This document shows, in pieces, positions 343-46,905 of a stretch of DNA of 64,000 bases (within the stretch, counting starts at the first letter, position 1; every line of letters starts with the position of its first letter). The translations under genes were made by a program, and so were the position numbers. The notes under the pieces were generated by a model. The model made no database searches. It worked only from the letters and a program-made list of their open reading frames with translations, and was not told the DNA's origin. Source of the stretch: an uncultured Spirochaetia bacterium (lineage in GTDB: Bacteria > Spirochaetota > Spirochaetia > CAZBHR01); assembly GCA_964492025.1 (NCBI GenBank), contig CAZBHR010000002.1, positions 106,568-170,567 on the forward strand, written 5' to 3'.

Positions 343-353
343 AGGAGATTAAT

Positions 354-986
354 ATGTTGGGGTTAATGAAGAATCATCTATATGCAGGTATGTATGGAAT
401 AAAAATAGCATTGGGCACTACCATTCTTCTTGCTGGTGCTGGAGTTGTGTTATTATCAGCTGGAGAAGGTTTACCGATGGATATTTTCTTTGCGTATTCG
501 GTTGTAATGCTTCCCTTTTTAGCTGTTTGCTCTATTAGCCCAGAAAGTGGAGCTAAGTGGAGTAGTTTTGAGTTGACCTTACCTATCTCAAAAAAAGATG
601 CCGTAGGTGCACAATATGTTATGTATTTTTGTTTCATGGTGGTTGGCTTACTGATAAGCTTTGTCTCTTTTGGAGTAAACGATCTTATTAACCCTCAAGT
701 AGTTTCTGTGCCTAAAATGATTTTTTCTTTTGTACTTTCCGTGCAAGAAGCCTTTATTATAGGGAGTGTGGGATTTCTACTTCTGATATTATTTGGACAA
801 GATAAAAGGGAAGTAATGTTTCTTTTAGCCTTCTTTATATCTGTTCCTTTTTCTATTGGATTCAGAATACTATTGGCTATATATGATATTTGGTATTTTC
901 CAATACTTATTGTGGTGAGTAGTGCTTTGTTATACATACTCTCTTATCTAATTTCTGTGGCTATATATAAGAAGAAAGATTTTTAA
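354..986 (+). CDS. ABC-2-type transporter permease, paralog 1 of 4
   Basis: 210 aa, hydrophobic with several predicted TM helices. N-terminus MLGLMKNHLY and C-terminus YKKKDF are shared with the three following ORFs. AGAGGAG ribosome-binding site just upstream. Confidence 0.55.
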   Translation: MLGLMKNHLYAGMYGIKIALGTTILLAGAGVVLLSAGEGLPMDIFFAYSVVMLPFLAVCSISPESGAKWSSFELTLPISKKDAVGAQYVMYFCFMVVGLLISFVSFGVNDLINPQVVSVPKMIFSFVLSVQEAFIIGSVGFLLLILFGQDKREVMFLLAFFISVPFSIGFRILLAIYDIWYFPILIVVSSALLYILSYLISVAIYKKKDF

Positions 987-998
987 AGGGAGGTTAAT

Positions 999-1664
999 AT
1001 GTTGGGGTTACTAAAGTATAATTATCATTCCTCATGGAGCTCTGTTCTTTTATCCTTTATACTGTACTTAACAGTATTATTTTTGGTTGTTATTATTCAG
1101 AGTTCTCTGATGTTTTCTCTTGCTGTATCACTGTCTTCTATGATGTTCTCCTTTTGCATATTTAGTACATCTGACCATGTAGATACCTCTACGTTATGGG
1201 CAAGTTTTGAGTTCTTACTTCCTATTGAAAAGAAAAAAATAATCCTAGCAAGGTATATTACTTTTCTTGTGTTTCTTCTGATGGGAGTTGTTTTAGGTGG
1301 CATTATTGTATGGTTACAGTCTGTTTTACAACCAGCACTACCTCTTCATACTCTCTTACTGGATATGTTCTTAGGTGTTGGATTTGGACTAGGATTTGGT
1401 GCAACTTTGATGGTAGAAACTTCTGCTTCAAAATCAGGTGGCAACCAAGGAATATCTGGATTGGTTTTTCTTGTAGCACCATTTTTGATACTCATCACTG
1501 TGGTGTGGGGAGTTGCAAAATTGTATGAGGTTTCCTTTATACAACTGTTCTTAGATAAGAGTATATATACTGTTGCTCTCTCTATATTTGTTCCTACAAA
1601 TATTCTTTTATGGCTTATTTCGTATCCTGTAAGTGTAAAACTTTACAAAACAAAGGAGTTTTAA
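999..1664 (+). CDS. ABC-2-type transporter permease, paralog 2 of 4
   Basis: 221 aa membrane protein, N-terminus MLGLLKYNYH, C-terminus YKTKEF. AGGGAGG ribosome-binding site upstream. Confidence 0.55.
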   Translation: MLGLLKYNYHSSWSSVLLSFILYLTVLFLVVIIQSSLMFSLAVSLSSMMFSFCIFSTSDHVDTSTLWASFEFLLPIEKKKIILARYITFLVFLLMGVVLGGIIVWLQSVLQPALPLHTLLLDMFLGVGFGLGFGATLMVETSASKSGGNQGISGLVFLVAPFLILITVVWGVAKLYEVSFIQLFLDKSIYTVALSIFVPTNILLWLISYPVSVKLYKTKEF

Positions 1665-2297
1665 ATGTTTGGTTTAATAAAGCATAATATCTATACTGGG
1701 GGCTTCGTTTTTTTTGTTTGGTTTGCACTATGCGCTGCTATTCTTTTTATAACAGGTATTGTGTCTAACCTAGCCAATTTTTCCATAGCTGCTTTTGGGT
1801 TCCTTGTCACTACTCCTATGCTGAGTACTGGAATGGTAAAGAAAGAGATACTCAGTCGTTGGAGTGTACAAGAATCGGTATTACCTATAAGAAAATATCA
1901 AGTTGTGACTACAAAATATATAGTACACTGCATATATTTAATTCCTTGCCTTATAGGAATCTTTGCTATTTTCTTTGTATTACCCTTGAGTAAAAGTGCT
2001 GGAGCTACTGTAGAGATAAGTGTTTTCGTATTTCTAGGAGTTTGTTTATCGTTATTATATGGAGCCCTCTATATACCATTTTTGTATATCTTAAAAGAGG
2101 CGAATCCAGACATTGTATCCCCCCTATGCTCTTTAATTGCAGCGGGACTTTTCGTTCTATCTATGAATATTTTTGATGGATCTTCTCTCTTTGAGGGTTT
2201 TAGTATGCGGGCTGTATATATCGCTCTGTTTATTGGACTTGTCTATGTAGCTTCAAATATACTTTCTTGGTATGTGTACAAGAAACGAGAGTTTTAG
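1665..2297 (+). CDS. ABC-2-type transporter permease, paralog 3 of 4
   Basis: 210 aa membrane protein, N-terminus MFGLIKHNIY, C-terminus YKKREF. ATG directly abuts the stop codon of paralog 2, with AAAGGAG upstream. Confidence 0.55.
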   Translation: MFGLIKHNIYTGGFVFFVWFALCAAILFITGIVSNLANFSIAAFGFLVTTPMLSTGMVKKEILSRWSVQESVLPIRKYQVVTTKYIVHCIYLIPCLIGIFAIFFVLPLSKSAGATVEISVFVFLGVCLSLLYGALYIPFLYILKEANPDIVSPLCSLIAAGLFVLSMNIFDGSSLFEGFSMRAVYIALFIGLVYVASNILSWYVYKKREF

Positions 2298-2363
2298 TTG
2301 TTCAAAAACATGGACGTAGTCCATGAAAAATTAATCGGCCATATTGAGGCAAAGGAGAACAAT

Positions 2364-2969
2364 ATGTTTGGTTTAATAAAAGATGTAATACATGCTCACA
2401 AATCGACAGTAATTATCTATGTCATAGTAGTAGTTCTTATCTCGCTCATTGCAATGTGGATAGAACGCTTTGATTTTCTAGACCTTTTTATTCCTGGGAT
2501 TCCCCCAGTTGCCTGTGTCTTGTTTCTTCCAGAACTCTATGGAAGAGAGACTCATTGGCATAATCAAAAAGCTACGGAAAAGCAGGTTGTTGGGTCTAAA
2601 TATGTGGTATTTCTTATGGTAATTGGGTTATCTTTTTTAGTATCATTACTGTTAACTATGTTTATTTCAGCCTCTGGCGAAAAAATAGTTGAATTTTTCA
2701 GAGCAGAATCTGCTTACATGGGGGTATCTCTTATTCTTGGAGCTACGTTCCTATTGTTGGCACACTTCTTGAATAAATATTCTCATCTCGTAATTATGCT
2801 AGTGAGTATGCTTGTATTGGTGGGTATCCTTGCGCTCATATTTGGTCTCTATAGCATTATATCATTCCCCCAGTCATCAGAAAAATTTATTTTTCTTGCT
2901 ATCAGCTGCGTGTTGTATATTATATCTTATTTTGTGTCAGTAGGTGTGTACAAGAAACGAGAGTTCTAG
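2364..2969 (+). CDS. ABC-2-type transporter permease, paralog 4 of 4
   Basis: The ORF track starts at 2298, but the ATG at 2364 is preceded by AAAGGAGA and gives N-terminus MFGLIKDVIH, matching the other paralogs. C-terminus YKKREF. Confidence 0.55.
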   Translation: MFGLIKDVIHAHKSTVIIYVIVVVLISLIAMWIERFDFLDLFIPGIPPVACVLFLPELYGRETHWHNQKATEKQVVGSKYVVFLMVIGLSFLVSLLLTMFISASGEKIVEFFRAESAYMGVSLILGATFLLLAHFLNKYSHLVIMLVSMLVLVGILALIFGLYSIISFPQSSEKFIFLAISCVLYIISYFVSVGVYKKREF

Positions 2970-2994
2970 AGAATTCTGCTACTGAACTTATAAA

Positions 2995-3026
2995 ACACCA
3001 CCCAAAGTAGGGTGGTGTTTCTTTAT
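2995..3026. terminator. Bidirectional intrinsic terminator between convergent genes
   Basis: Stem ACACCACCC (2995-3003) pairs with GGGTGGTGT (3010-3018) around loop AAAGTA. A-rich 5' flank and T-rich 3' flank (TTCTTTAT). Sits between permease paralog 4 (+) and the aminopeptidase gene (-). Confidence 0.5.
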
Positions 3027-3030
3027 AAAC

Positions 3031-4818
3031 TTATACTTCTGCAGTGGCCTCCGCAAGCCACTCCTGAACCGGTTCTGCTAAAAGGGGAGCCAGTTCTGCA
3101 TACACTCCAGCGTGGTAGTCATTGAGCCAATCTTTCTCCTCTGCGGTGAGGGCATCTGTATTAATCAGTTTTCGCTCAAAGGGTGTTATGGTAAGGGTTT
3201 CAAAACCGAGCCACTGGGCAAACTCTGTTGTTTCGCGTTTCTCTACAAGTACGAGATTTTCCAGTCGTATTCCATGTTTCCCTTCACGGTAAAGTCCTGG
3301 TTCATTGGAAAGGTACTGTCCAGCTTCCAGAGCAACATTAATTCCCTTTGGAGAGATACTCATAGGCCCTTCGTGTACATTCATGAAAAATCCTACTCCG
3401 TGTCCCGTTCCATGGCCGTAGTTCAATCCTACATCCCAGAGTGGTTTTCGTGCCAGTATATCAATCTGGTGTCCAAAGGTTCCTACGGGAAACTGGGCTG
3501 TTGCTAAGGCAATATGCCCTTTGAGTACTGCTGTGTAATCGGAAACCTGCTCCTCTGTGGGCTCTCCAATTAAGAGGGTTCTGGTAATATCGGTGGTTCC
3601 GCAGAGGTACTGTCCTCCTGAATCAAACACCATAAGCCCCTGTCCAGAAAGTGGTGCCGATAGCTCCTTTGATGCATGGTAGTGGTTAAGTACTCCATTC
3701 TCCTGATACCCCGCAATGGTAGCAAAGCTTTCATCAGTAAATCCCTTTTGTGCAGATCGGCACTCCTTAATTTTCTCCATGGTGTCCCACTCTGTAAGGG
3801 TACTTTTATCTTCAATAGAGTCAAACCAGTGTAGAAAGTTTGCCATTGCTACTCCATCAAGCTTATGTGCCTCTCTGAGTTGTGCTTTTTCGGTCTCTGT
3901 TTTTACTGCTTTTCGTGTAGTTATTGGGTGGGGTGTTATCTCCTTACCTACAACACTCTTCTGGAACTTTGTTATGAGTCCATAGGGTGCTGAGGTGGGG
4001 TCAATAATTACAGTTCCCTGAAGGGCTTCTACCTGACCATATACGCTATCGTAGGGGAGGAGTGTTACACTCTCTCCCAGTTCTGCTTGTAGCTCTTTAC
4101 TAAACGCTTCAATATGGGTGCAGAGAATTGCTTGCTTATTTGGGTTTCTAGATATTATCAAAAACCCCTCAAAAACAGGGTTGTACTGTTGCACAGTTCC
4201 TCGCAGGTTTAGGAGGTACCCAATCTCCGCAAGGTTTGTAGAAAGAAGGACATCCGATTTCCGCTCTTCCATATAGGTATACGCCCATGCGAGTCTCTCC
4301 TCTCGGGTCTCTCCTGTGTACGATGAATCAAGCGATACCACTTGCTCTTCTGGTGGGTTTGGTCGGTCTTCCCAGAGGGGAAGAAAGATGTTTTCCATTC
4401 CTTGTAAGGTTATACCTGCTCCTTCCAGCTCTTTTTGTAGGTCTAAAAATCCCTTGAATGAGATAGTCATACTATCAACACCAATAACAGATCCCTTCGG
4501 CATTTCTGCTTTCAGCCAATCTCCGTAGGAGAGTACTTCAGGAAGACCAAATTTATGAATTTCTACAGAAGTGCCTTCAACTTCACGGGCTGCTTGTACA
4601 TAGTATCTGCTGTCCACCCAAAGGTGTATTGCATCTTGGAGAACTACCACGGTTCCGGCAGATCCACTAAAACCAGTAATTCCCTGGCGTTCCATCCAGT
4701 GGGGTGGGAGATATTCGGTCTGATGAGGGTCTGTCCCTGTTATAATCCACCCGTCTATATTCTGCTTTGTAAGCTCCTCTTGAACACGGGAAATGCGGTT
4801 GTTTATGGTACTTTTCAT
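3031..4818 (-). CDS. Xaa-Pro aminopeptidase (M24B, aminopeptidase P family)
   Basis: 595 aa. C-terminal catalytic region with HGTGHGVGFFMNVHEGP and downstream acidic metal-ligand residues typical of M24B. AGGAG ribosome-binding site upstream of the ATG at 4818. Confidence 0.75.
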   Translation of the reverse strand: MKSTINNRISRVQEELTKQNIDGWIITGTDPHQTEYLPPHWMERQGITGFSGSAGTVVVLQDAIHLWVDSRYYVQAAREVEGTSVEIHKFGLPEVLSYGDWLKAEMPKGSVIGVDSMTISFKGFLDLQKELEGAGITLQGMENIFLPLWEDRPNPPEEQVVSLDSSYTGETREERLAWAYTYMEERKSDVLLSTNLAEIGYLLNLRGTVQQYNPVFEGFLIISRNPNKQAILCTHIEAFSKELQAELGESVTLLPYDSVYGQVEALQGTVIIDPTSAPYGLITKFQKSVVGKEITPHPITTRKAVKTETEKAQLREAHKLDGVAMANFLHWFDSIEDKSTLTEWDTMEKIKECRSAQKGFTDESFATIAGYQENGVLNHYHASKELSAPLSGQGLMVFDSGGQYLCGTTDITRTLLIGEPTEEQVSDYTAVLKGHIALATAQFPVGTFGHQIDILARKPLWDVGLNYGHGTGHGVGFFMNVHEGPMSISPKGINVALEAGQYLSNEPGLYREGKHGIRLENLVLVEKRETTEFAQWLGFETLTITPFERKLINTDALTAEEKDWLNDYHAGVYAELAPLLAEPVQEWLAEATAEV

Positions 4819-7610: not shown

Positions 7611-8695
7611 AGATTTTTCTCCTTTGACCCTTTGATTCTGCGTGCAATTTTTGTCCAGTACCGCTCAATAAGAAGACTAATAGCAGTAAAATAGATAATT
7701 GTAGCAATGATAGTATCTGAGATCTGAGTAGGGATATCTGTAATGGCATTCATCAAACCTTTCCCTGTGTGGAGGACTCCAAAGAATAGGGCTGCTGCCA
7801 GTACTCCAAAGGGATTTGTTGCTCCGAGAAGTGCTACAGCAATTCCATCAAACCCTTGGTTTGGAAGTACTCCAATCTGCATGCTTGTGGCAAAACCTGT
7901 ATAAAAGGTGAGTCCCCCAAGACCTGCAAGAGCTCCTGCAATGCCCATAGAAAGAACAATATTTCTCTCTACCTTAACACCGGCATATTCTGCAGCATCT
8001 CTGTTGTGTCCTACCGCTTTTAGCTCAAATCCTAGGGTTGTTTTCTCTAAAATAAACCAGATTAAGAATACCGCACCAATAGCTAAAAAAAGTCCGTAGT
8101 TAATGTATGACCCATTAAAGAGGTTCGTAAGCCAATCAGCCCGTAATGAGGCCTCTAGGGCAATTTTTTTACTTTCTGTCTCTAGGGTAGGTCCCTTGAG
8201 ATAGGATGGTACAAAGTAGTATACCACCCAGTAGGCTATCCAGTTCATCATAATAGTAGAAACTACCTCATGCACATTAAACTTTGCCTTAATGAGTCCT
8301 GGAATAAATCCCCATAGAGCTCCTGCTAGTGCAGCCGCTAAAATCATAGTGGGTAGGAGAATTGCTCTTGGGAGTGGCACCAGTAGGGCGACGGTGGTCG
8401 CAGCTAATCCTCCAGCAAGCATCTGACCAGCTGCTCCAATATTGAAGAGTCCCGTTCTAAATGCGTATGCTACGGAGAGTCCCGTAAAGATAAGGGTGGT
8501 TGCGGTGGCTAGGGAGTTTCCTATACGCTCAATGTTCATAAGGCCACCCTTAAATAGGTTAATATATCCTACAATAGGGTTTGCTCCTACCATAAGAATA
8601 AACACTGCTCCAACGAGAAGCCCTAATACCACAGATATAAGAGAGATAGCCAGGGGTCCTGGTTTTTCGAACCGTTTTTTTCCTAACTCTTTCAT
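7607..8695 (-). CDS. Nucleoside ABC transporter permease
   Basis: 362 aa polytopic membrane protein, 4-nt overlap with the ATPase gene. Confidence 0.65.
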   Translation of the reverse strand: MKELGKKRFEKPGPLAISLISVVLGLLVGAVFILMVGANPIVGYINLFKGGLMNIERIGNSLATATTLIFTGLSVAYAFRTGLFNIGAAGQMLAGGLAATTVALLVPLPRAILLPTMILAAALAGALWGFIPGLIKAKFNVHEVVSTIMMNWIAYWVVYYFVPSYLKGPTLETESKKIALEASLRADWLTNLFNGSYINYGLFLAIGAVFLIWFILEKTTLGFELKAVGHNRDAAEYAGVKVERNIVLSMGIAGALAGLGGLTFYTGFATSMQIGVLPNQGFDGIAVALLGATNPFGVLAAALFFGVLHTGKGLMNAITDIPTQISDTIIATIIYFTAISLLIERYWTKIARRIKGSKEKNL

Positions 8696-11658: not shown

Positions 11659-14223
11659 ATGGATCAAAAAGAACGATTAGATGCAACTATTAGTACTGCA
11701 AAAAAGGCACAAATTGCCTATAGTACTTTTAGTCAGGAGAAGGTGAATGAAATTTTCCGTACCAGTGCACTTGCTGCAAACAACGCAAGAATATCGCTTG
11801 CTAAAATGGCAGTAAAAGAGACGGGAATGGGTATTGTTGAGGATAAGGTAATTAAGAATCACTTTGCTTCAGAGTACATCTATAATAAGTATAAAGATAC
11901 TCCTACCTGTGGTGAAATTGAAAGAGATAACGCCTTTGGTATTATCAAAGTAGCAGAGCCTATTGGAGTTATTGGAGGAGTTGTTCCTACAACAAACCCA
12001 ACTTCAACCGCAATTTTTAAAGCTCTTTTAGCACTTAAAACTCGAAACGCTATCATTTTTTCTCCTCACCCTAGAGCGGTAAAGAGTACTATTGAAGCGG
12101 CAAAAATTGTAAAAGAGGCAGCCGAAGCAGCGGGTGCACCAAAGGGACTTATTGGCTGGATTGATGAGCCATCTGTTGCAGCAAGTCAGCAGCTTATGGG
12201 TCACCCTGATATTAGTATTATTCTTGCTACCGGTGGTCCTGGTATGGTACGTGCTGCTTACAGCTCTGGAAAACCAGCCCTTGGAGTTGGTGCAGGTAAT
12301 ACTCCAGCGGTTATTGATGAAACTGCGGATATTAAAGAGGCTGTAAGTTCTATTCTTATGAGTAAAACCTTTGACAACGGAATGATCTGTGCTTCAGAGC
12401 AGTCTGTTGTGGTATGTGATAAGGTGTATAAAGAGGTAAAAGCGGAGTTTGCCTTACGAGGAGCTCATCTTCTTTCTAAGACAGAACAACCAAAGGTTGC
12501 AAAGATTCTTTTAAAAGATGGCCATTTAAATGGGGCTATTGTTGGTCAGCCTGCATATAAGATTGCAGAGATGGCTGGGGTTACCGTACCTGTAGAAGCG
12601 AAGGTTCTTATTGGTGAGGTTTCAAAAATTGGTGTAGACGAGCCTTTCTCCTTTGAGAAGTTAAGTCCTGTATTAGCAATGTACAAAGCAAAGGATTACA
12701 AAGACGCCTTTGATAAAGCTGCCGCCCTTGTAGAGTTTGGTGGATTAGGACATACCTCTGTTCTTTATACCGATAGAAGTAATACCGATAGGGTAGACGA
12801 GTTTGGATCAAGAATGAAAGCTGGACGAACTCTTATTAATATGCCCTCAAGCCAGGGAGCAATTGGAGATCTCTTTAACTTTAAGTTAGCCCCATCACTT
12901 ACTCTTGGGTGTGGAAGCTGGGGAGGAAACTCCGTAAGTCAGAACGTTGGACCTATGGAATTATTAAATATCAAAACAGTAGCAGAGAGGAGAGAGAATA
13001 TGTTGTGGTTTCGAGTACCTCCAAAGGTATATTTTAAACGAGGTTCTTTGGAGCTTGCACTGGGAGACCTTGCTGATAAAAAGAGAGCTTTTATTGTAAC
13101 CGATCAATTTCTTTACGAAAATGGATACTGTGACGGAGTTACTAAAACATTAAGTAGTATGGGAATACTTTATGATATCTTCCCAGAAGTAAAACCAGAT
13201 CCAACCCTTTCTACTGCATACCGTGGAGTTGAGGCGATGAAAAACGCAAACCCCGATGTTATCATTAGTATTGGTGGTGGTTCTCCAATGGACTGTGCAA
13301 AAATTATGTGGCTTCTGTATGAACACCCAGAGGTGAAGTTTGAGGATCTAGCTCTTCGATTTATGGATATTCGAAAGAGAGTATACACCTTCCCAGAGCT
13401 TGGAGGAAAGGCTTCTTTTGTTGCAATTCCAACTACCAGTGGTACAGGATCAGAAGTTACCCCATTTGCGGTTATTACTGATGACTCAACAGGTATGAAA
13501 TATCCTATTGCGGACTACCAGCTTACCCCTCATATGGCAATTTGTGACCCTAACCTTGTTATGGCAATGCCAAAAGCTCTTACTGCTCACTCAGGGCTTG
13601 ATGTACTTACTCACGCACTGGAAGCTCTTGTTTCTGTACTTGCTACAGAGTTTACCAACTCTATGGCTCTTGAGGCAATTCGACTTACCTTTAAATATCT
13701 TCCTGCTTCATATACAGAGGGAGATCAGAAGGCAAGAGAGAAAATGCACTACGCATCAACCCTTGCGGGAATGGCTTTTGCAAACGCATTCCTAGGTGTG
13801 TGTCACTCTATGGCTCACAAGCTTGGAGCTTTCCATCACCTGCCACATGGGTTATCAAATGCACTTCTCTTAACAGAGGTTATTCGATACAACGCAGATA
13901 ATGCACCAACAAAGCAGGGAGCTTTCTCTCAGTACAAGCACCCAGAAGCGTCTATGCGATACGCACGAGTTGCTGATCTTTTAGGACTTGGTGGTAAAAC
14001 TGAAGAGGAGAAGGTTGAGAAGCTTATTGCTAAGGTTGAAGAACTTAAGGCTATTTGTGAAATCCCAGAAAGTATTTCTGCAGCAGGGATTGATGAAAAG
14101 TCTTTTATGAAGAACCTTGATGAGATGTGTGATGAGGCTTTTGATGATCAGTGTACCAGTGCGAACCCACGGTTCCCATTGATCTCTGAGATTAAGGATC
14201 TTTATCTAAAAGCTTTTAAATAG
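11659..14223 (+). CDS. adhE: Bifunctional acetaldehyde-CoA / alcohol dehydrogenase
   Basis: 854 aa. N-terminal aldehyde dehydrogenase region (...ISLAKMAVKETGMGIVEDKVIKNHFASEYIYNKYKD...) and C-terminal iron-type alcohol dehydrogenase domain. AGGAG ribosome-binding site. Confidence 0.9.
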   Translation: MDQKERLDATISTAKKAQIAYSTFSQEKVNEIFRTSALAANNARISLAKMAVKETGMGIVEDKVIKNHFASEYIYNKYKDTPTCGEIERDNAFGIIKVAEPIGVIGGVVPTTNPTSTAIFKALLALKTRNAIIFSPHPRAVKSTIEAAKIVKEAAEAAGAPKGLIGWIDEPSVAASQQLMGHPDISIILATGGPGMVRAAYSSGKPALGVGAGNTPAVIDETADIKEAVSSILMSKTFDNGMICASEQSVVVCDKVYKEVKAEFALRGAHLLSKTEQPKVAKILLKDGHLNGAIVGQPAYKIAEMAGVTVPVEAKVLIGEVSKIGVDEPFSFEKLSPVLAMYKAKDYKDAFDKAAALVEFGGLGHTSVLYTDRSNTDRVDEFGSRMKAGRTLINMPSSQGAIGDLFNFKLAPSLTLGCGSWGGNSVSQNVGPMELLNIKTVAERRENMLWFRVPPKVYFKRGSLELALGDLADKKRAFIVTDQFLYENGYCDGVTKTLSSMGILYDIFPEVKPDPTLSTAYRGVEAMKNANPDVIISIGGGSPMDCAKIMWLLYEHPEVKFEDLALRFMDIRKRVYTFPELGGKASFVAIPTTSGTGSEVTPFAVITDDSTGMKYPIADYQLTPHMAICDPNLVMAMPKALTAHSGLDVLTHALEALVSVLATEFTNSMALEAIRLTFKYLPASYTEGDQKAREKMHYASTLAGMAFANAFLGVCHSMAHKLGAFHHLPHGLSNALLLTEVIRYNADNAPTKQGAFSQYKHPEASMRYARVADLLGLGGKTEEEKVEKLIAKVEELKAICEIPESISAAGIDEKSFMKNLDEMCDEAFDDQCTSANPRFPLISEIKDLYLKAFK

Positions 14224-33914: not shown

Positions 33915-35090
33915 CTATTTGAGTTTTGCCCAATCACCTCGTAAGAAGTGATCCTGCTTTATATTTCCATGGGTCCATCCTGCAAGGCCCGTCCACTCTT
34001 TGTATGGGGCTTTCCAAAAACGGTGCTTAGGGGGGAGACCAAGTGGCAGAAATGCCATACAGCAGAAGTACTGGCTTCCTATAGAAAGGTAGTACTCTCC
34101 TAGTTTATCTTGCTCACCATATACTCCCATGGTGAGCCATCCATTTGCATCGAAGATATTTGGATTTTCCATGGTCTTTTCTATAACGGCGGTCATTGCC
34201 GAGCGTATTTGATTTGGTGCAAGATTTTTTGGGAGTAATCCATGGAGAGCAAGGTGTCCTAAGTGCTGAAAAGCACCAAACCGATAGGTGAGTGAACGAC
34301 CAATAAGTGGGTAGGTCCCATCGGGACCAATCATTCTTTCAAGTACCTGTGCGTATCGGGAACCTCGTTTGAGCTGTTCTTTATACAGTTTAGTAAAGTA
34401 GGGAAGTTCCTTTTTTACCTGAAACAGAACATCCATCATCATAGGCTGAATTACAAAGCTATTGTAGTAATCCCATGCAAACTCAGGACCATCACCATAA
34501 GCACCATCACCTACATACCAGTCATCGTGGGACCTAAGGGCGTACTCAATTCGTGTAATATCGTAGGCCTCTCCTATGCTACATAAAAAGGTCTCAATGA
34601 TAGCAGAAAAGAGTAACCAGTTACTGTAGTCTGGTCTATGTTTTCTACTCTCTTGAAAAGCAGCTAAAAGTTGCTGTTTTGTTTCCGATGGAAGAGGTTC
34701 CCAAAGCTGCTTTGGAGCTCGATAAAAGGCATTTGCCAAGTATGCAGCATGTACAAGTTGGGTCTTATTACGAAGGAAATCTGCATAATCCTTTGCCTGT
34801 GGGTTTACAAGGTTTATAACTCCCTCTCGAGCCATAACTCTAAATTTTTGCTGAAGATCTTTCTCCTCACCTTGGGGTAACTGAACCTCAAGCCAGGGAG
34901 CAATTCCTGCTAAAACACGACTACACCCCTCTAGATTACTAAAGAAATAGGCTCCCGCTTTTCTTTTTGGGAACACCTCCAAAAGTCTATCCTCTGCTAA
35001 GGCAGATAGAAGTGGCTCCGTGATTTTTACCATGGTGTCAATCCAAAATTGTCGGACTGGTTTTCCTCGTTCCATTGAATACTGCATCAA
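33915..35090 (-). CDS. Conserved hypothetical protein, possibly carbohydrate-active (DUF2264-like)
   Basis: 391-aa soluble ORF with no signal peptide and good coding character; family assignment is from memory only. Confidence 0.4.
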   Translation of the reverse strand: MMQYSMERGKPVRQFWIDTMVKITEPLLSALAEDRLLEVFPKRKAGAYFFSNLEGCSRVLAGIAPWLEVQLPQGEEKDLQQKFRVMAREGVINLVNPQAKDYADFLRNKTQLVHAAYLANAFYRAPKQLWEPLPSETKQQLLAAFQESRKHRPDYSNWLLFSAIIETFLCSIGEAYDITRIEYALRSHDDWYVGDGAYGDGPEFAWDYYNSFVIQPMMMDVLFQVKKELPYFTKLYKEQLKRGSRYAQVLERMIGPDGTYPLIGRSLTYRFGAFQHLGHLALHGLLPKNLAPNQIRSAMTAVIEKTMENPNIFDANGWLTMGVYGEQDKLGEYYLSIGSQYFCCMAFLPLGLPPKHRFWKAPYKEWTGLAGWTHGNIKQDHFLRGDWAKLK

Positions 35091-42909: not shown

Positions 42910-43025
42910 AGCAACCTCTCTTCACGCAGAGTAATGAAATATATAAAACCTTTCAATATGGGGAGTTTCTCAAAAGTTCCCAATACCATATAGATTTTCC
43001 TTGGTAACTGTTGTAAGGTTGTTAT

Positions 43026-43946
43026 ATGGATAGTGTAGAGTTACGAGGTAATATTCTTAATATACTGAAAAAACAAGGACCCATTTCGGGAGAGTCTCTT
43101 GCCCAGCAACTAGGGTTTTCTCGTGTTGCTCTGTGGAAGCATGTCGAAGCCCTACGTACTATGGGATACAATATAGTAGGATGCAGGGGAGGATATACCG
43201 TATCCGATAGTCAGGACCTTCTTTACCCCTGGGAATTTCCGGGAATGGAACAATATATACATTACTATCCAGAGTGTGGTTCTACCATGGATGAAGCAGA
43301 GTTACTTGTGTCACAAGGGGCTCCAGAGGGTTCTTTGGTTCTTGCGGGTGTCCAAACAAAGGGACGGGGAAGGCTTGGGCGTGTGTGGGAGTCTCCTGTG
43401 GGCGGAATTTATGGAACCCTCATTGTAAGACCAGAGTATCTTCCTTTACAGGAGTTTTGGACAATGCAGTGGAGACTTATCGTTTCCATTGTTCGTGCAG
43501 TACGAGAAATTGGGGTGGATGCATCTATTAAATGGCCAAATGATCTGTTAGTGGGGTCAAAAAAATTGACAGGAGTGATAGCAGAGACTCGATCTTCCGG
43601 TGGGTTTGTTGAGTGGGGGTTACTCGGTTTTGGTATTAACTGCAATAATCAGGTTCCCGAGGTTGGTGTATCCTTAGGATCACTTCTTGGAACACCTATA
43701 GATAGAAAAGCTCTTATTCGTGGAATTCTTACACACTTTCAAGAGGTTAGGGTGCTCTCTATAGAAGAGCTTACCCAACAGTGGAGGAGTTATACCTCAA
43801 CCTTGGGCAGGAAGGTTACTATTGATATGGGTGGTGGAAATACCCTTGAGGGAGTTGCTAAAGAGGTGTTTAGTGATGGGAGTCTTGTTGTTGTAGACAC
43901 CCAAGGAGAGGAGCATCGCTGTTACTCCGGTGATTGTTTGTATTAA
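43026..43946 (+). CDS. birA: Bifunctional biotin-protein ligase / biotin operon repressor
   Basis: 306 aa. N-terminal helix-turn-helix (ISGESLAQQLGFSRVALWKHVEALR), central ligase domain (GRGRLGRVWESP..., KWPNDLL). Ends ...EEHRCYSGDCLY. Confidence 0.8.
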   Translation: MDSVELRGNILNILKKQGPISGESLAQQLGFSRVALWKHVEALRTMGYNIVGCRGGYTVSDSQDLLYPWEFPGMEQYIHYYPECGSTMDEAELLVSQGAPEGSLVLAGVQTKGRGRLGRVWESPVGGIYGTLIVRPEYLPLQEFWTMQWRLIVSIVRAVREIGVDASIKWPNDLLVGSKKLTGVIAETRSSGGFVEWGLLGFGINCNNQVPEVGVSLGSLLGTPIDRKALIRGILTHFQEVRVLSIEELTQQWRSYTSTLGRKVTIDMGGGNTLEGVAKEVFSDGSLVVVDTQGEEHRCYSGDCLY

Positions 43947-43947
43947 G
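43909..43947 (+). repeat. 39-bp direct repeat, copy 1 (covers the last 36 nt of birA plus the base after the stop)
   Basis: AGGAGCATCGCTGTTACTCCGGTGATTGTTTGTATTAAG is identical to 44687-44725. Confidence 0.85.
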
Positions 43948-44068
43948 GGCATAAGTTAAGAACTCTTTCGGCCGTAGCTATAGAAGTGATTTCTATGAAG
44001 ATCTCTTATCATATATTTGACAGGCTGGACTAAATATAGTATCTTTAAAAGACTAGGAGGGGCGCTTT

Positions 44069-44341
44069 ATGAGTATTACAAACCATATAAAACCTATCTC
44101 ATATATTAAATCGCACGCAGCAGAGGTTCTTCAAGATGTTCACGAGACTAAGGTTCCTTATGTTATCACACAACATGGAGAAGCTAAGGCTGTCCTTATG
44201 GATACCTCTTCGTATGACTCTTTAATGGAGTCAATAAAAGTGCTTAAGCTCCTCCAGCAAGGAGAGAAGGATGTGGTTGAGGAGTGTGTTGTTGCTCAAG
44301 ATACTGTTTTTTCTCAGGTAGAGAAGATTTTTGACATATGA
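44069..44341 (+). CDS. Type II antitoxin, Phd/YefM family
   Basis: 90 aa (MSITNHIKPISYIKSHAAEVLQDVHETKVPYVITQHGEAKAVLMDTSSYDSL...). 4-nt overlap with the downstream toxin gene. GGAGG ribosome-binding site. Confidence 0.6.
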   Translation: MSITNHIKPISYIKSHAAEVLQDVHETKVPYVITQHGEAKAVLMDTSSYDSLMESIKVLKLLQQGEKDVVEECVVAQDTVFSQVEKIFDI

Positions 44342-44664
44342 GTAATGGGTTTTCAGTTCTGTGGACAGGTACAGCTGTAGAGGATTTGAAGTCTCTGTGT
44401 GAGTATCTTGCACAAGACTCAATGAATGTTGCTAGAAAGCAGTATAAAAAAATACGAGATAGAGCTAAAACACTTGAAACATTCCCTTTTGAAGGTCGTG
44501 TTATTCCTGAGTTACAGGTTCACAATATTTATACTTACAGAGAGCTTGTAATTTCTCCATGGAGATTGTTCTATCGTATAAGTAAGCAAGAGGTGTATGT
44601 ACTTGCAATAATAGATAGTAGGCGAGATATCCAAGATCTCCTTTTGGATCGTATTTTACGGTAA
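44338..44664 (+). CDS. Type II toxin, ParE/RelE family
   Basis: 108 aa, C-terminal ...YRELVISPWRLFYRISKQEVYVLAIIDSRRD typical of ParE/RelE. ATGA overlap with the antitoxin gene. Confidence 0.6.
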   Translation: MSNGFSVLWTGTAVEDLKSLCEYLAQDSMNVARKQYKKIRDRAKTLETFPFEGRVIPELQVHNIYTYRELVISPWRLFYRISKQEVYVLAIIDSRRDIQDLLLDRILR

Positions 44665-44686
44665 CCCTGTACACCTATCAACTAAT

Positions 44687-44725
44687 AGGAGCATCGCTGT
44701 TACTCCGGTGATTGTTTGTATTAAG
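44687..44725 (+). repeat. 39-bp direct repeat, copy 2 (non-coding duplicate of the birA 3' end)
   Basis: Exact copy of 43909-43947, located 23 nt after the toxin stop and just upstream of the bioY operator and promoter. Confidence 0.85.
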
Positions 44726-44768
44726 ATTATCCTGCATCCACAATTTGAGGTAGACACTCTTTTAGTCT

Positions 44769-44801
44769 TTTGTTAACCTGTATTTATAAATAAGTTAACG
44801 A
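44769..44801 (+). promoter_or_regulatory. Candidate BirA operator overlapping the bioY promoter
   Basis: Half-sites TTGTTAACC (44769-44778) and AGTTAACGA (44793-44801) form an imperfect inverted repeat separated by about 14 nt of AT-rich sequence containing TATAAA. Lies about 30 nt upstream of bioY. Confidence 0.4.
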
Positions 44802-44830
44802 TAATAAAGATTCACTGCAAAGGAGTGTTG

Positions 44831-45385
44831 ATGAACAGAACAAAATCAATTATTTTAATAGCCCTAGGTGTTGCCCTTGTATGGGTTGGGTCGGTTGTCT
44901 CAATTCCTATTGGTCCTGTACCAATAACTCTACAAACTATGATGGTTGTAGTGGTGGGAATGATGTTAGGCCCTACTCGTGGAGGGTTGGCTATTCTTCT
45001 TTACTACCTTTTAGGAGTTATAGGAATTCCGGTTTTTGCTGGATTTAAATCGGGGGTTGCCGTATTTACCACCTCTCCCACAGCAGGGTTTTTATTAGGG
45101 TTTTTTCCCGCTGCTCTTATTTCGGGAATCCTCTTTTCTGTGGCTACATGGTTTAAAGGAGTTGTCCGATATGTTCTGATTGCCGTAGCTGCGGTTGTTG
45201 GAATGGTAGTTCCGTATACTTTGGGGATTCCTCTTTTTATGAGCTATACAGGAAAAACCCTCGCCGAATCGCTTCCCCTTGTATTAACTCCATTTATTGT
45301 AGGAGATGTGATTAAAACATTTGCTGCCACTCTTGTTGGGGGAGCACTTTTACGGTTTCGTAGTGTTGATGGAGAGAACTCCTAA
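44831..45385 (+). CDS. bioY: Biotin transporter S component
   Basis: About 184 aa, multi-TM, with conserved BioY block (PIGPVPITLQTMMVV). Start set to ATG 44831, 5 nt after AGGAG. Confidence 0.75.
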   Translation: MNRTKSIILIALGVALVWVGSVVSIPIGPVPITLQTMMVVVVGMMLGPTRGGLAILLYYLLGVIGIPVFAGFKSGVAVFTTSPTAGFLLGFFPAALISGILFSVATWFKGVVRYVLIAVAAVVGMVVPYTLGIPLFMSYTGKTLAESLPLVLTPFIVGDVIKTFAATLVGGALLRFRSVDGENS

Positions 45386-45430
45386 GGTGAGTTTATATCA
45401 TAATATGAGTGATATACAGAAGGCATACCT

Positions 45431-46186
45431 ATGATACCTCATACAAAACCCATTGTTTCAGTTGAAAATCTTTACTACTCAATTGGGAAAAATCCAATTT
45501 TACAGGGTGTAAATCTCAAGGTAGAACCTGCAGAGATTGTAGTTCTTGCTGGTCGTAATGGGTGTGGGAAAAGTATTTTATCTCGACATATACGAGGGCT
45601 TATTCCTCTAAAAAAAGATCAGGGAGATATTCGTATTGATGGAGTCTCTATGGTTGGTCATAAGGGGGTTTACCCCGATGTGGGGCTTGTATTTCAGGAC
45701 CCTGACTTACAAATTGTGGGTAGTAGTGTAGAGAAAGATATTGCCTTTGGTCCAGAAAACCTAAAAATGGATAGAGAAGAGGTTTCTCGACGAGTTAGGG
45801 CAATTGGGGATCAGTTGGAGCTTACAAAACTTTTTACCCGTCGTCCACATACTCTTTCTGGTGGTGAAAAGCGGCGAGTTGCCATGGCTGGTGTTATGAT
45901 TATGGAGCCTAAGCTTCTCATTTTAGATGAACCCTTTGTAGCCTTGGACTATCCAATGATTAGAGAGATCCTCTCAATTATTGTAGATTTACAAAAGCGG
46001 GGAGTGGCAACACTAATTATTACCCACGATTTAGAAGTGTGTTTAGCCCATGCTGATAGGCTTGCCCTTATGTCTGAAGGAGCGATACTCTCTCAAGCAC
46101 CTCCGCAAGAAAATATCCACAGAATTACCGAAGTAGGGCTTCATCCTCCCCGTTTAGCTGTGGGGGAGTGCACATGGCTGAATTAA
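45431..46186 (+). CDS. ECF transporter ATPase (BioM/EcfA-type)
   Basis: 251 aa with Walker A (GRNGCGKS), signature (LSGGEKRR) and Walker B (ILDEP). Confidence 0.75.
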   Translation: MIPHTKPIVSVENLYYSIGKNPILQGVNLKVEPAEIVVLAGRNGCGKSILSRHIRGLIPLKKDQGDIRIDGVSMVGHKGVYPDVGLVFQDPDLQIVGSSVEKDIAFGPENLKMDREEVSRRVRAIGDQLELTKLFTRRPHTLSGGEKRRVAMAGVMIMEPKLLILDEPFVALDYPMIREILSIIVDLQKRGVATLIITHDLEVCLAHADRLALMSEGAILSQAPPQENIHRITEVGLHPPRLAVGECTWLN

Positions 46187-46905
46187 GGATTCTTCATTAT
46201 CAACCAGGGGAGAGTTGGCTTCATCGACACCACCCTGGAGCAAAGTTTCTCGAGTTTCTGGGAATTAATATTGTATTAGTGTTACTACCTCTCTGGAGTT
46301 CAGCTCTTTTTTTGATACCCCTTGTGGTACTGTTTCCGTTTGTTGGATTTGATCGAAAAACCTTTACATCTCTTGGAATAGCCGTGGTCAGTATGATGGT
46401 ATTCTTTATTTGTATTGGAATGCTCTCTGTGGAGGGGGTTTGGTTCTCTCTTTCTGGATGGAACGTTGGGGTGTTGCAGGGGCTTCGGTTTATTACACTG
46501 ACCCTATGGGCGGTACTTTTTTTGGGAGTAACAGACCCTTGGGATATTGCGGGATGTATCGGTTCGCTCGGAAGAGGACGGGTAAAACTATTCTCCTATT
46601 TAGGTTTTGCTATAGCCTTAGTGTTAAGTTTCTTTCCTATGCTTTTAGATAGGGCTCTTGAACAAGGGGAGGCGTTAAGAAATAGAGGGTTAACCTTTCG
46701 TAATCCGATTAGATACTGTGCCTTTCTTGGGAGTAAACTGGTTATTTCTGTAGAACTTCTTGCGGATGATCTTTCCATGGCTATCGAGTCTCGTTGTTAT
46801 CGACCAGATAGAGCTTGGGGAATTCCTCGTTGGAAGGTTGTTGATATAGTTGGAGTCTTTACTGTTTGGATTGTTCTTGGAGTCTTATTTATTATTTTTC
46901 CATAA
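46174..46905 (+). CDS. ECF transporter transmembrane (T) component (BioN/EcfT-type)
   Basis: About 243 aa polytopic protein, overlaps the ATPase gene; start ATG 46174 or GTG 46168. Confidence 0.7.
   Translation: MAELRILHYQPGESWLHRHHPGAKFLEFLGINIVLVLLPLWSSALFLIPLVVLFPFVGFDRKTFTSLGIAVVSMMVFFICIGMLSVEGVWFSLSGWNVGVLQGLRFITLTLWAVLFLGVTDPWDIAGCIGSLGRGRVKLFSYLGFAIALVLSFFPMLLDRALEQGEALRNRGLTFRNPIRYCAFLGSKLVISVELLADDLSMAIESRCYRPDRAWGIPRWKVVDIVGVFTVWIVLGVLFIIFP

What the first reader, a model, noticed from the sequence alone, without database searches (positions are those of the whole stretch)
43909..44725. Toxin-antitoxin cassette between birA and bioY bracketed by an exact 39-bp direct repeat of the birA 3' end
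The 39-mer AGGAGCATCGCTGTTACTCCGGTGATTGTTTGTATTAAG occurs twice, at 43909-43947 and 44687-44725. The first copy encodes the last 11 codons and stop of birA. The second copy is non-coding and lies immediately upstream of the candidate BirA operator for bioY. Exactly between the copies sit a promoter-like region and a Phd/YefM-ParE/RelE pair (44069-44664). This is the signature of a small cassette inserted at the birA-bioY junction with duplication of the target, and recombination between the repeats would excise it precisely. No recombinase is encoded nearby. The insertion also separates the repressor from its target operon, which could affect biotin regulation.
Basis: seen in the sequence. Interest (0 to 1): 0.7.

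Follow-up and report, generated by a model that had tools for sequence, protein, structure and literature searches.

The report
Toxin-antitoxin cassette with duplicated insertion site
A small self-contained toxin-antitoxin gene pair sits between the biotin ligase/repressor gene birA and the biotin transporter gene bioY, bracketed by two copies of the last 38-39 bases of birA; one related strain lacks the pair and has a single copy, so this is a clean natural example of how such "addiction" genes enter and leave a chromosome without any recombinase of their own.

Summary
The 39-mer occurs exactly twice (43909-43947, 44687-44725). It brackets a 739-bp insert holding a promoter-like site, a Phd/YefM antitoxin gene and a ParE/RelE toxin gene.

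A strain with 98% identical BirA (L009) has birA and bioY joined through one copy of the 39-mer. Nine other assemblies carry the cassette at identical junctions, including a lineage only 93% identical in DNA. The insertion is therefore old. In that lineage the non-coding copy still has the window-type sequence, while the coding copy has changed.

The empty haplotype is nested among filled ones, which favours precise excision. The empty state rests on one 3.2-kb contig.

A relative with 70% identical BirA carries its own 30-bp duplication of the birA end around an unrelated 48-bp insert, so this site was used more than once.

Six of 72 homologous Phd-ParE pairs in unrelated genomes are also bracketed by a two-copy local direct repeat (0 of 109 controls); a seventh sits in an integron-like array.

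No recombinase, terminal inverted repeats or attC were found. The structure matches "insertion with long target duplication", described for restriction-modification genes. The insertion mechanism is not shown. An effect on biotin regulation is not supported.

The parts
43026..43946 (+). birA, bifunctional biotin ligase/repressor (306 aa). It is intact; its C-terminus ...RCYSGDCLY is the same as in the 70% identical relative P0002.
   Evidence: Pfam HTH_11 plus BPL_LplA_LipB. NCBIfam birA_ligase 145 bits and birA_repr_reg. Protein sequences compared.
43909..43947 (+). Direct repeat copy 1: the last 11 codons, the stop of birA and 1 nt. This is the coding copy, which changes with birA in other lineages.
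   Evidence: Lineage variants AGGAACACC... (L181/L182) and AAGATCATC... (L177-L179).
43948..44686 (+). Inserted cassette, 739 bp. It is absent from the empty allele L009. GC is 0.378 against 0.404 for the window, which is not atypical. It has no terminal inverted repeats.
44017..44045 (+). Promoter-like site of the cassette (TTGACA-17-TATCTT). An AGGAGG ribosome-binding site lies a few bases before the antitoxin ATG.
   Evidence: Consensus match only. The region from about 44029 onward is conserved with the homologous cassette in L011.
44069..44341 (+). Phd/YefM-family antitoxin gene (90 aa).
   Evidence: PF02604 E=7e-17. TIGR01552 phd_fam.
44338..44664 (+). ParE/RelE-superfamily toxin gene (108 aa). 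Its start overlaps the antitoxin stop by 4 nt (ATGA).
   Evidence: PF05016 E=2e-15. TIGR02385 RelE_StbE 30 bits. Nearest solved structure is ParE2, 5cw7, E=1.6e-3. The window toxin carries all 20 invariant family residues. Against L010 there are 4 synonymous and 1 non-synonymous codon differences.
44687..44725 (+). Direct repeat copy 2, non-coding. It looks like a fossil of the birA 3' end at the time of insertion: it keeps AGGAGCATC even in the lineage whose birA now reads AAGATCATC.
44771..44799 (+). Candidate BirA operator upstream of bioY (TGTTAACC-N15-GTTAAC).
   Evidence: Unique in the window, 0.02 expected. The relative L006 has a perfect palindrome, TGTTAACC-N14-GGTTAACA, at the same place. 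Binding was not tested.
44831..45385 (+). bioY, the biotin-specific S component of an ECF transporter. The first gene downstream of the insertion.
   Evidence: PF02632 E=4e-33.
45431..46905 (+). ECF-type ATPase (45431-46186) and CbiQ/EcfT transmembrane component (46168-46905). These are context genes of the bioY operon.

Best explanation
A self-contained type II toxin-antitoxin operon was inserted once, long ago, at the very end of birA. The operon comprises its own promoter, a Phd/YefM antitoxin gene and a ParE/RelE toxin gene, 739 bp in all. The insertion event duplicated 38-39 bp of the host's own sequence. This is the pattern called 'insertion with long target duplication', previously described for restriction-modification genes.

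The cassette encodes no recombinase. The duplication is what lets it sit inside the last codons of an essential gene: copy 1 keeps birA whole, and copy 2 keeps the upstream region of bioY whole.

Since then the two copies have behaved as ordinary short homologies.
- Shown or nearly shown: they bracket the cassette in every filled strain. One strain has the exact one-copy product expected from recombination between them. One substitution is shared by both copies in one lineage, which suggests gene conversion or re-integration.
- Inferred: loss is slowed because cells that excise the cassette keep the stable toxin (post-segregational killing). The original insertion was made by host recombination or repair, or by an enzyme acting in trans, with a preference for this site.
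For: - Exact repeat with sharp edges.
- Empty allele with one copy and a 106-bp birA-bioY gap, exactly window minus 778 bp.
- Filled allele at identical junctions in nine other assemblies: L001, L002, L005, L010, L177-L182.
- The same assembly, GCA_019826025.1, holds both a filled contig (L178) and the empty contig (L009).
- In the 93% identical lineage, copy 2 retains the window-type AGGAG while copy 1 carries that lineage's coding changes. The repeat was therefore host-derived at a single ancestral insertion.
- Position 17 is T in both copies of that lineage only.
- The empty haplotype differs from a filled one (L005) at 3 of 724 birA sites, and from the most distant filled lineage at 41.
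- No recombinase in 44 of the 48 ORFs of 150 aa or more in the window. No terminal inverted repeats. No hairpin or attC. No close relatives on phages or plasmids.
- Family-level support: 7 of 72 loci with homologous ParE (43-56% identity, many phyla) have exact direct repeats of 18 bp or more bracketing just the Phd-ParE pair, against 0 of 109 shifted controls (Fisher p=0.0013). Six of these have exactly two copies, all with different sequences, 34 to about 130 bp long. All 10 flanking ORFs scanned, in five of these loci, are ordinary chromosomal genes and none is a recombinase.
- The structure meets the criteria of Furuta et al. 2010 (PMC2853133) for this class.
Against: - The mechanism of the original insertion is not shown by any result here.
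- A relative with 70% identical BirA (L006) has an independent 30-bp duplication of its own birA end around a 48-bp insert. Both duplications end within 0-4 nt of the stop codon. This degree of site specificity fits a site-specific enzyme better than random break repair.
- The empty state rests on one 3.2-kb contig from a mixed-strain assembly.
- Whether that contig reflects excision or an old polymorphism cannot be rooted, because the population is highly mosaic.
- Toxicity, neutralisation and post-segregational killing are untested.
- Only 64 kb of the genome was available to search for an integrase.
- Empty sites for the six other repeat-bracketed cassettes could not be obtained, so 'target duplication' there is inferred from structure only.
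Confidence: 0.65

Rival explanations
1. Site-specific integration. The 3' end of birA is the attB of an integrative element family. The two repeats are attL and attR. The cassette is a non-autonomous or decayed remnant, like the cis-mobilisable elements of Streptococcus thermophilus, moved by a tyrosine integrase encoded elsewhere in the genome.
For: - The repeat covers the 3' end of a gene and stops at or 1 nt after the stop codon. This is the classical layout of elements that carry a surrogate gene end.
- A second, independent duplication lies at the same place in L006, ending 4 nt after the stop.
- No such duplication was found at the birA end in 71 more distant BirA loci, so the hot spot is specific to this clade.
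Against: - No integrase in the cassette or in the ORFs scanned in the 64-kb window.
- Each lineage's repeat is identical to its own host sequence, including synonymous sites (8 of 30 positions differ between window and L006). In lineage C, copy 2 preserves an older host sequence. An element-borne attP would not be expected to show either feature.
- No dyad symmetry or hairpin in the repeat.
- Repeats around homologous cassettes vary from 34 to about 130 bp and share no sequence.
- No related phage or plasmid.
Confidence: 0.2
2. The cassette is an integron gene cassette captured at a secondary site, or part of a chromosomal integron.
For: One homologous Phd-ParE pair (L031, a Spirochaetia MAG) lies in an array of at least four repeats of about 90 bp with attC-like ends (TAAC...GTTAG) and a hairpin. 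TA cassettes in chromosomal integrons are well known (own knowledge).
Against: - No attC-like hairpin or RYYYAAC/GTTRRRY core next to the window cassette.
- The repeat is birA coding sequence and is single-copy in the empty allele.
- No intI among the ORFs scanned and no cassette array in the window.
- IntI-mediated insertion does not duplicate 39 bp (own knowledge).
Confidence: 0.03
3. The insertion/deletion polymorphism is an assembly artefact: the empty contig L009 is a collapsed path through the repeat. The repeat and cassette themselves would still be real.
For: - L009 is short (3156 bp) and comes from a mixed-strain assembly that also holds a filled contig starting at the same base.
- k=31 Logan contigs do break at the repeat.
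Against: - The same project's assemblies resolve the repeat in contigs of 25-63 kb.
- L009 has its own SNP haplotype on both sides of the junction, different from every filled contig.
- Only two antitoxin variants exist in the protein collection. The only contig of that assembly shown carrying one is L178, which has lineage-C flanks.
- The 70% relative also lacks the TA genes.
Confidence: 0.07
4. The repeat pre-existed, for example as a duplicated regulatory or terminator element, and the cassette landed between two existing copies by chance.
For: - The 39-mer contains a weak terminator-like hairpin.
- L006 also has two copies.
Against: - The empty allele has one copy.
- The hairpin is not more stable than shuffled sequence (z=-0.5).
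- Copy 2 is a copy of coding sequence that ends at the stop codon.
Confidence: 0.03

Closest known systems
Insertion with long target duplication of restriction-modification genes (Nobusato et al. 2000, Gene 259:99; Furuta, Abe & Kobayashi 2010, PMC2853133)
   Same: - A small addiction-type gene unit with no mobility genes, flanked by direct repeats longer than 30 bp.
- The repeats are single-copy in a related genome that lacks the insert.
- Repeat length and sequence vary from case to case.
- One Haemophilus influenzae case has a 46-bp repeat overlapping the 3' end of the upstream gene, as here.
   Different: - The cargo is a Phd/YefM-ParE toxin-antitoxin pair, not a restriction-modification system.
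- The insert is only 739 bp.
- The same site was used again in a sister lineage.
- The mechanism is unknown for both. Furuta et al. suggested that double-strand breakage by the restriction enzyme is involved, and that does not carry over directly.
Chromosomal type II TA pairs between conserved genes in Escherichia coli (relA-mazEF-mazG, dinB-yafNO-yafP, ccdO157 between folA and apaH), reviewed by Fraikin et al. 2020, PMC7167474
   Same: - A TA pair sits between two functionally unrelated conserved genes.
- Other strains have the undisturbed junction.
- The review states that the integration mechanism 'remains unelucidated'.
   Different: Here the insertion carries a clear 38-39-bp target duplication and a fossil copy of the target. 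To my knowledge long flanking duplications are not a reported feature of the E. coli cases (own knowledge, not checked).
Integrase-dependent elements in the 3' ends of genes, and their integrase-less derivatives (cis-mobilisable elements at fda in Streptococcus thermophilus; own knowledge)
   Same: Direct repeats that include the 3' end of a protein-coding gene. A short element without its own integrase.
   Different: No integrase or autonomous relative was found. The repeats are host-lineage-specific rather than element-specific.
TA gene cassettes of chromosomal integrons (own knowledge; the L031 array is an example found here)
   Same: A promoter-containing TA pair as a minimal, bounded unit of about 0.7-0.9 kb.
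   Different: No attC, intI or array at this locus.
ParE2 of the PaaA2-ParE2 system of E. coli O157:H7 (PDB 5cw7, 5cze, 5czf)
   Same: Nearest solved structure by sequence to the toxin (E=1.6e-3). Same Pfam family, PF05016.
   Different: Very distant. The partner here is a Phd/YefM antitoxin, not PaaA2. Whether the target is gyrase (ParE-like) or the ribosome-bound mRNA (RelE-like) is not determined.

Membership tests
Type II toxin-antitoxin system, Phd/YefM-ParE/RelE type | Antitoxin belongs to the Phd/YefM family | tested here: met
   PF02604 61 bits (cut-off 29.8). TIGR01552 43 bits (cut-off 20.8).
Type II toxin-antitoxin system, Phd/YefM-ParE/RelE type | Toxin belongs to the ParE/RelE superfamily | tested here: met
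   PF05016 57 bits (cut-off 23). TIGR02385 30.1 bits (cut-off 27.9). All 20 invariant columns of the 21-sequence alignment are present.
Type II toxin-antitoxin system, Phd/YefM-ParE/RelE type | Two small adjacent genes, antitoxin first, translationally coupled, with their own promoter | tested here: met
   4-nt ATGA overlap at 44338-44341. The promoter is only a consensus match, TTGACA-17-TATCTT.
Type II toxin-antitoxin system, Phd/YefM-ParE/RelE type | The toxin arrests growth and the antitoxin neutralises it; the antitoxin is labile | not testable with these tools
   Needs expression experiments.
Insertion with long target duplication (criteria of Furuta et al. 2010) | Flanking direct repeat longer than 30 bp | tested here: met
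   39 bp exact (38 bp if the last base is secondary).
Insertion with long target duplication (criteria of Furuta et al. 2010) | A related genome lacks the insert and has one copy of the repeat, with both flanks aligned | tested here: met
   L009. This is a single contig.
Insertion with long target duplication (criteria of Furuta et al. 2010) | Insert shorter than 20 kb with no mobility genes in or next to it | tested here: met
   739 bp holding only the two TA genes. No recombinase among the 44 of 48 ORFs of 150 aa or more scanned in the 64-kb window.
Insertion with long target duplication (criteria of Furuta et al. 2010) | The repeat is otherwise unique in the genome | tested here: inconclusive
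   Unique in the 64-kb window and absent from both public collections. The complete genome was not available.
Site-specific integrative element or its integrase-less derivative | A tyrosine or serine integrase encoded in the element, or a known autonomous relative using the same att site | tested here: not met
   None in the cassette or in the window ORFs scanned. No relative in phage, plasmid or viral collections. The rest of the genome was not searched.
Site-specific integrative element or its integrase-less derivative | The att identity block is element-borne, so it is the same in independent integrations | tested here: not met
   The repeats in window and L006 each match their own host's birA. 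Copy 2 in lineage C preserves an older host sequence.
Integron gene cassette | attC recombination site (imperfect palindrome with RYYYAAC...GTTRRRY) at the cassette 3' end | tested here: not met
   Only 22 bp follow the toxin stop. Folding is no better than shuffles (z=+0.67 and -0.5).
Integron gene cassette | intI/attI platform or a cassette array nearby | tested here: not met
Transposon, insertion sequence or MITE | Terminal inverted repeats and a short target duplication of fixed length | tested here: not met
   Inverted-repeat score 6 against a shuffle mean of 7.4. The duplication is 38-39 bp here and 30 to about 130 bp in related cases.

The most novel reading that the evidence does not exclude
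Phd-ParE cassettes of this family are minimal mobile units in their own right. They enter chromosomes by a break-and-repair or staggered-cut reaction that duplicates 30-130 bp of the target. The reaction could be promoted by DNA breaks caused by the ParE toxin itself, or by an unrecognised enzyme acting in trans. In this clade the last codons of birA would be a preferred target. Once in place, the repeat-bounded cassette can leave as a circle and re-enter any empty site through the 38-39-bp homology. This would give toxin-antitoxin genes the same 'virus-like' cycle proposed for restriction-modification genes, and would answer how TA modules integrate.
Probability: 0.12. Interest if true: 0.8.

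Novelty: new member of a known kind. Interest (0 to 1): 0.5.

Why it matters
How chromosomal toxin-antitoxin modules move and integrate is an acknowledged open question. Fraikin et al. 2020 (PMC7167474) say the mechanisms "remain unelucidated".

This locus offers a complete natural series at one site:
- a filled allele in several diverged lineages;
- an empty allele with one repeat copy;
- a fossil copy of the target that dates the event;
- a second, independent duplication at the same site in a sister lineage;
- a hint that the two copies still recombine.

Homologous cassettes in other phyla also show two-copy flanking repeats (6 of 72 loci, none in 109 controls). Together this suggests that the "long target duplication" route known for restriction-modification genes also applies to TA genes.

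This is comparative evidence from uncultured organisms, and the mechanism is not shown. It does define concrete tests: junction and circle reads, and RecA or integrase dependence.

Tried and rejected
- Dispersed repeat: rejected. The 39-mer has 2 copies in the window and none in the genome or metagenome collections.
- attC or hairpin recombination site: rejected. Folding is no better than shuffled sequence.
- Terminal inverted repeats or shared end motifs among eight inserts: none found. The only similarity between cassette left ends is in the first 120 nt, which in several of them already include the promoter region and the start of the antitoxin gene.
- tRNA or other RNA gene as target: none.
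- Phage or plasmid vehicle: the viral-contig scan found no relative. No phage DNA match. Plasmid homologues are below 38% identity.
- Foreign base composition: the cassette GC is at the 23rd percentile of the window, so this is not informative.
- General birA-end hot spot: 71 distant BirA loci show no duplication of the birA end. The one hit (L103) is a different repeat of about 130 bp around bioY.
- The 48-bp insert of L006 matches nothing in the window cassette or in any fetched locus.
This was partly bypassed through the antitoxin search.
- The assemblies' accession numbers are not mentioned in the searchable literature. The organism was not identified. The best TA homologues include Spirochaetales and Leptospirales MAGs, which is only a hint.
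Full report
**1. The observation**

The 39-mer AGGAGCATCGCTGTTACTCCGGTGATTGTTTGTATTAAG is present exactly twice in the window, at 43909-43947 and 44687-44725. Both copies are on the + strand, 778 bp apart start to start. No further copy appears even with three mismatches allowed, and none appeared in 100 shuffles. It is one of only two direct-repeat families longer than 34 nt in the 64 kb; the other, D4, is a 72%-identical pair 35.5 kb apart. The bases on either side of the two copies differ, so the edges are sharp.

Copy 1 is the end of a 306-aa ORF with an HTH_11 domain and a biotin-protein ligase domain. NCBIfam hits birA_ligase and birA_repr_reg confirm it as a bifunctional BirA. Between the copies lie:
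- a TTGACA-17-TATCTT promoter-like site at 44017-44045;
- a Phd/YefM antitoxin gene at 44069-44341 (PF02604, E=7e-17);
- a ParE/RelE toxin gene at 44338-44664 (PF05016, E=2e-15), overlapping the antitoxin stop by ATGA.

Downstream of copy 2 come a palindrome TGTTAACC-N15-GTTAAC at 44771-44799 (unique in the window), then bioY, an ECF-type ATPase and a CbiQ/EcfT gene.

**2. The empty site exists**

Exact-protein look-ups placed the same filled locus in several NCBI assemblies of one project: L001, L002, L005 and L010. The representative of the BirA cluster (P0001, 98% identical) lies on contig L009. There birA is followed by bioY after 106 bp.

L009 carries one copy of the 39-mer. Its positions 1-1024 align with window 42924-43947, and positions 986-3156 with window 44687-46857. 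The two alignments overlap by exactly the repeat. Window minus 778 bp therefore equals L009.

A relative with 70% identical BirA (P0002, locus L006) also has birA directly followed by bioY and no TA genes.

**3. The insertion is old and found in many strains**

The antitoxin search returned a 98% identical variant (P0157) on nine contigs. All those that reach the junctions are filled at the same bases. They include a lineage (L177-L179) that is only about 93% identical to the window overall. Its divergence from the window by segment is:
- birA 4.6%;
- cassette 2.3% (17 of 739);
- spacer upstream of bioY 9.5%;
- bioY 16%;
- ecfA and ecfT 9-10%.

In this lineage copy 1 reads AAGATCATCGCTGTTATTCC...TATTAAC. 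These are coding changes, giving E295K and E296D in the protein. Copy 2 reads AGGAGCATCGCTGTTATTCC...TATTAAG and so keeps the window-type first five bases. Copy 2 is thus a fossil of the birA end at the time of a single ancestral insertion. The repeat was made from host sequence and was not brought in by the cassette.

In two lineages the base after TAA in copy 1 is C. The original duplication was therefore probably 38 bp, ending exactly with the stop codon.

One substitution (position 17, C to T) is present in both copies of lineage C and in no other lineage. The simplest reading is gene conversion between the copies, or re-integration through them. This rests on one site.

**4. Is the empty allele ancestral or an excision product?**

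Over 724 shared birA positions, the empty haplotype L009 differs:
- from the filled contig L005 at 3 sites;
- from the window at 12;
- from the filled L181 at 15;
- from the filled L177 at 41.

The empty allele is therefore nested among filled ones, which favours precise loss by recombination between the repeats. I cannot exclude a long-standing presence/absence polymorphism, because the population is strongly mosaic:
- L005 has L009-type SNPs outside about 43753-44872 and window-type SNPs inside.
- L180 combines a window-type birA with the other cassette haplotype.
- Local divergence between lineages ranges from 0% (42910-43025) to 16%.

Some mosaics could also be chimeric contigs from mixed-strain samples.

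The empty contig and a filled contig (L178) come from the same assembly and start at the same base, so both alleles appear to coexist in one sample. A collapse artefact is unlikely for three reasons. L009 has private SNPs on both sides of the junction. The same project's assemblies span the repeat in contigs of 25-63 kb. And no cassette contig with L009-type flanks appeared among the contigs shown. Even so, the empty state rests on a single contig.

**5. A second duplication at the same place**

In L006 the sequence GTTACTCCGGGGATTGCCTCTACTAGATTT (30 bp) occurs at 2226-2255 and 2304-2333. It comprises the last seven complete codons of that lineage's birA (plus 2 nt of the preceding codon), the stop codon and 4 nt. 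The edges are sharp, and an unrelated 48-bp insert lies between the copies. Behind copy 2, the distance to the conserved operator palindrome is about the same as in the window (41 against 45 nt). Copy 2 plus the downstream sequence is therefore the original arrangement.

The two L006 copies are identical to each other but differ from the window repeat at 8 of 30 positions. The repeat boundaries also differ. This looks like an independent event at the same site, not a shared ancestral one. Long-term concerted evolution cannot be formally excluded.

Seventy-one distant BirA loci from metagenomes show no duplication of the birA end. The site preference is therefore specific to this clade.

**6. 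What kind of element is it?**

- Pfam or NCBIfam scans of 44 of the 48 ORFs of 150 aa or more in the window found ordinary chromosomal genes and no recombinase or transposase. Examples are adhE, metH, a pyrophosphatase, sugar ABC transporters, glycoside hydrolases and two-component systems.
- The cassette has no terminal inverted repeats.
- The repeat and its surroundings fold no better than shuffled sequence.
- No Rfam family or tRNA is involved.
- The nearest toxin outside this species complex is 55% identical (L011). It sits in another gene context without repeats, and shares only the TA genes and the sequence from about the -10 region onward.
- No relative was found among viral contigs or phage genomes, and plasmid-borne homologues are below 38% identity.
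- The toxin belongs to the ParE/RelE superfamily. It just passes the RelE_StbE model, and its nearest solved relative is ParE2, so its cellular target is open.
- Between the window and L010 the toxin gene has four synonymous and one non-synonymous codon differences. All family-invariant residues are present. This is consistent with a gene under purifying selection.

**7. Is flanking duplication a property of this TA family?**

I fetched 80 loci encoding homologous toxins (43-56% identity) from species-representative genomes of many phyla. I searched for exact repeats shared between the 1 kb upstream of the pair and the 0.7 kb downstream.

Eight of 72 testable loci had a repeat of 18 bp or more, against 0 of 109 controls with the same geometry shifted by 1.6 kb (maximum 16 bp). 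Fisher p=0.0005, or 0.0013 without L031.

L031 is a different thing. It is an array of at least four units of about 90 bp with attC-like ends, and so probably an integron.

The other seven loci include L029, whose exact segment is only 18 bp but extends to about 95 bp at 86-91% identity. Six loci have exactly two copies in about 6 kb, bracketing only the Phd-ParE pair:
- L024: 34 bp, 100% identity; this repeat is a strong terminator hairpin;
- L025: 34 bp, 100%;
- L029: about 95 bp, 86-91%;
- L014: 106 bp, 88%;
- L075: 109 bp, 87%;
- L039: 130 bp, 96%; this repeat includes the last 27 nt of the upstream gene.

All six repeat sequences are different. The inserts are 713-1207 bp. I scanned 10 flanking ORFs in five of these loci (L075 was not scanned). 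Six had Pfam hits, all to ordinary chromosomal genes: purC, an HD-domain gene, typA/bipA, an epimerase, argG and an FtsK-family gene. A seventh had only a sub-threshold methyltransferase match, three had none, and none was a recombinase. I could not obtain empty sites for these loci, so calling them target duplications is an inference from structure.

**8. Comparison with what is known**

[quoted passage not shown] The class was defined for restriction-modification genes. It includes a Haemophilus case whose 46-bp repeat overlaps the 3' end of the upstream gene (PMC2853133). Its mechanism is unknown.

For TA genes, a recent review states that the way they integrate "remains unelucidated" (PMC7167474). 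My literature searches found no description of this structure for a TA pair. That is not proof of absence.

**9. Mechanism: what is shown and what is inferred**

Shown:
- the repeat is host-derived;
- there was a single ancestral insertion;
- the cassette has persisted through 4-16% flank divergence;
- a one-copy allele exists;
- the same site was used independently in a sister lineage;
- the cassette encodes no recombinase.

Inferred, with moderate confidence:
- The two copies recombine, giving excision and gene conversion. Thirty-eight bases is above the minimal length for RecA-dependent recombination in E. coli (own knowledge).
- Toxin stability slows the spread of excisants (general TA knowledge).

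Not resolved: the reaction that made the duplication. Variable, host-specific repeats argue for a break-repair or template-switch type of event, or for Campbell-type entry of a circle carrying a short host patch. The recurrence at the same few bases just after the birA stop codon argues for a site-specific activity acting in trans. I rate the first at about 0.65 including the descriptive part, and the integrase alternative at about 0.2.

**10. Regulation**

BirA acts in trans. The candidate operator and the whole 106-bp upstream region of bioY are intact behind copy 2. The operator is conserved in L006 as a perfect palindrome. Read-through from the cassette promoter into bioY is possible, because the only terminator-like feature is a weak hairpin inside the repeat. 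This was not testable here.

**Verdict**

The feature is real and correctly read. It is a clean, dated, population-level example of a toxin-antitoxin cassette inserted with a long target duplication at a recurrently used site. It belongs to a known structural class and a known gene family, so it is not a new kind of system. It is nevertheless a useful natural entry point to an open question.

Noticed in passing
L006:2226-2333 (GCA_040777385.1; BirA 70% identical to the window's): An exact 30-bp direct repeat of that lineage's own birA 3' end (GTTACTCCGGGGATTGCCTCTACTAGATTT) brackets an unrelated 48-bp insert. Two k=31 Logan contigs (L007, L008) end exactly at the end of the first copy. This looks like an independent use of the same site, or the scar of a lost cassette.
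   Followed up: partly
L005 (window 43124-45282 equivalent); L180: Mosaic haplotypes. L005 carries the SNPs of the empty strain L009 outside about 43753-44872 and the window's SNPs inside, across the cassette. L180 has a window-type birA with the other cassette haplotype. Either the cassette moves between strains by homologous recombination in the flanks, or these are chimeric contigs from mixed-strain samples.
   Followed up: partly
L014, L024, L025, L029, L039, L075 (homologous Phd-ParE loci in unrelated MAGs): Each pair is bracketed by a two-copy local direct repeat of 34 to about 130 bp (86-100% identity). All the repeat sequences differ. The 10 flanking ORFs scanned in five of the loci included no recombinase. 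In L039 the repeat includes the last 27 nt of the upstream FtsK-family gene.
   Followed up: partly
L031:2504-6027 (Spirochaetia MAG): A homologous Phd-ParE pair sits in an array of at least four repeats of about 90 bp with TAAC...GTTAG ends and a hairpin. This is probably a chromosomal integron cassette array.
   Followed up: partly
L103:6923-7050 and 7631-7760 (distant BirA locus from a metagenome): An imperfect repeat of about 130 bp flanks bioY itself, just downstream of birA. It looks like a dispersed or regulatory repeat and is unrelated to the window's repeat.
   Followed up: no
window 42910-43025: The intergenic region between the divergent methyltransferase gene and birA is 100% identical in all lineages, including the one that differs by 4-16% elsewhere. 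Contigs L009 and L178 both begin inside it.
   Followed up: no
window 44726-46905 compared with L177: bioY (16%) and ecfA/ecfT (9-10%) are far more divergent between lineages than birA (4.6%) or the methyltransferase genes (3.8%). This suggests import of the transporter operon from a more distant relative, or fast evolution.
   Followed up: no
window 43026-43946: BirA of this clade (window, P0001, P0002) gets no Pfam BPL_C (PF02237) hit, unlike most of the approximately 40% identical homologues listed. Its C-terminal domain is divergent.
   Followed up: no
window 344-2969: Four tandem paralogous genes of about 210-220 aa, with starts repeating every 645-699 bp. The two that were scanned match ABC-2 family membrane proteins (PF13346).
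   Followed up: no
L093-L096 (Logan contigs from SRR15291756, SRR15291763, SRR15291766 and SRR15291767): All four contigs start at window position 44696, 30 nt before the end of repeat copy 2. This is the break expected where a k=31 assembly graph branches at the repeat. The repeat, or the filled/empty polymorphism, is therefore present in those samples too.
   Followed up: partly
window 12845-12864 and 34886-34905: An exact 20-bp direct repeat (CCTCAAGCCAGGGAGCAATT) with copies 22 kb apart. It was not examined.
   Followed up: no
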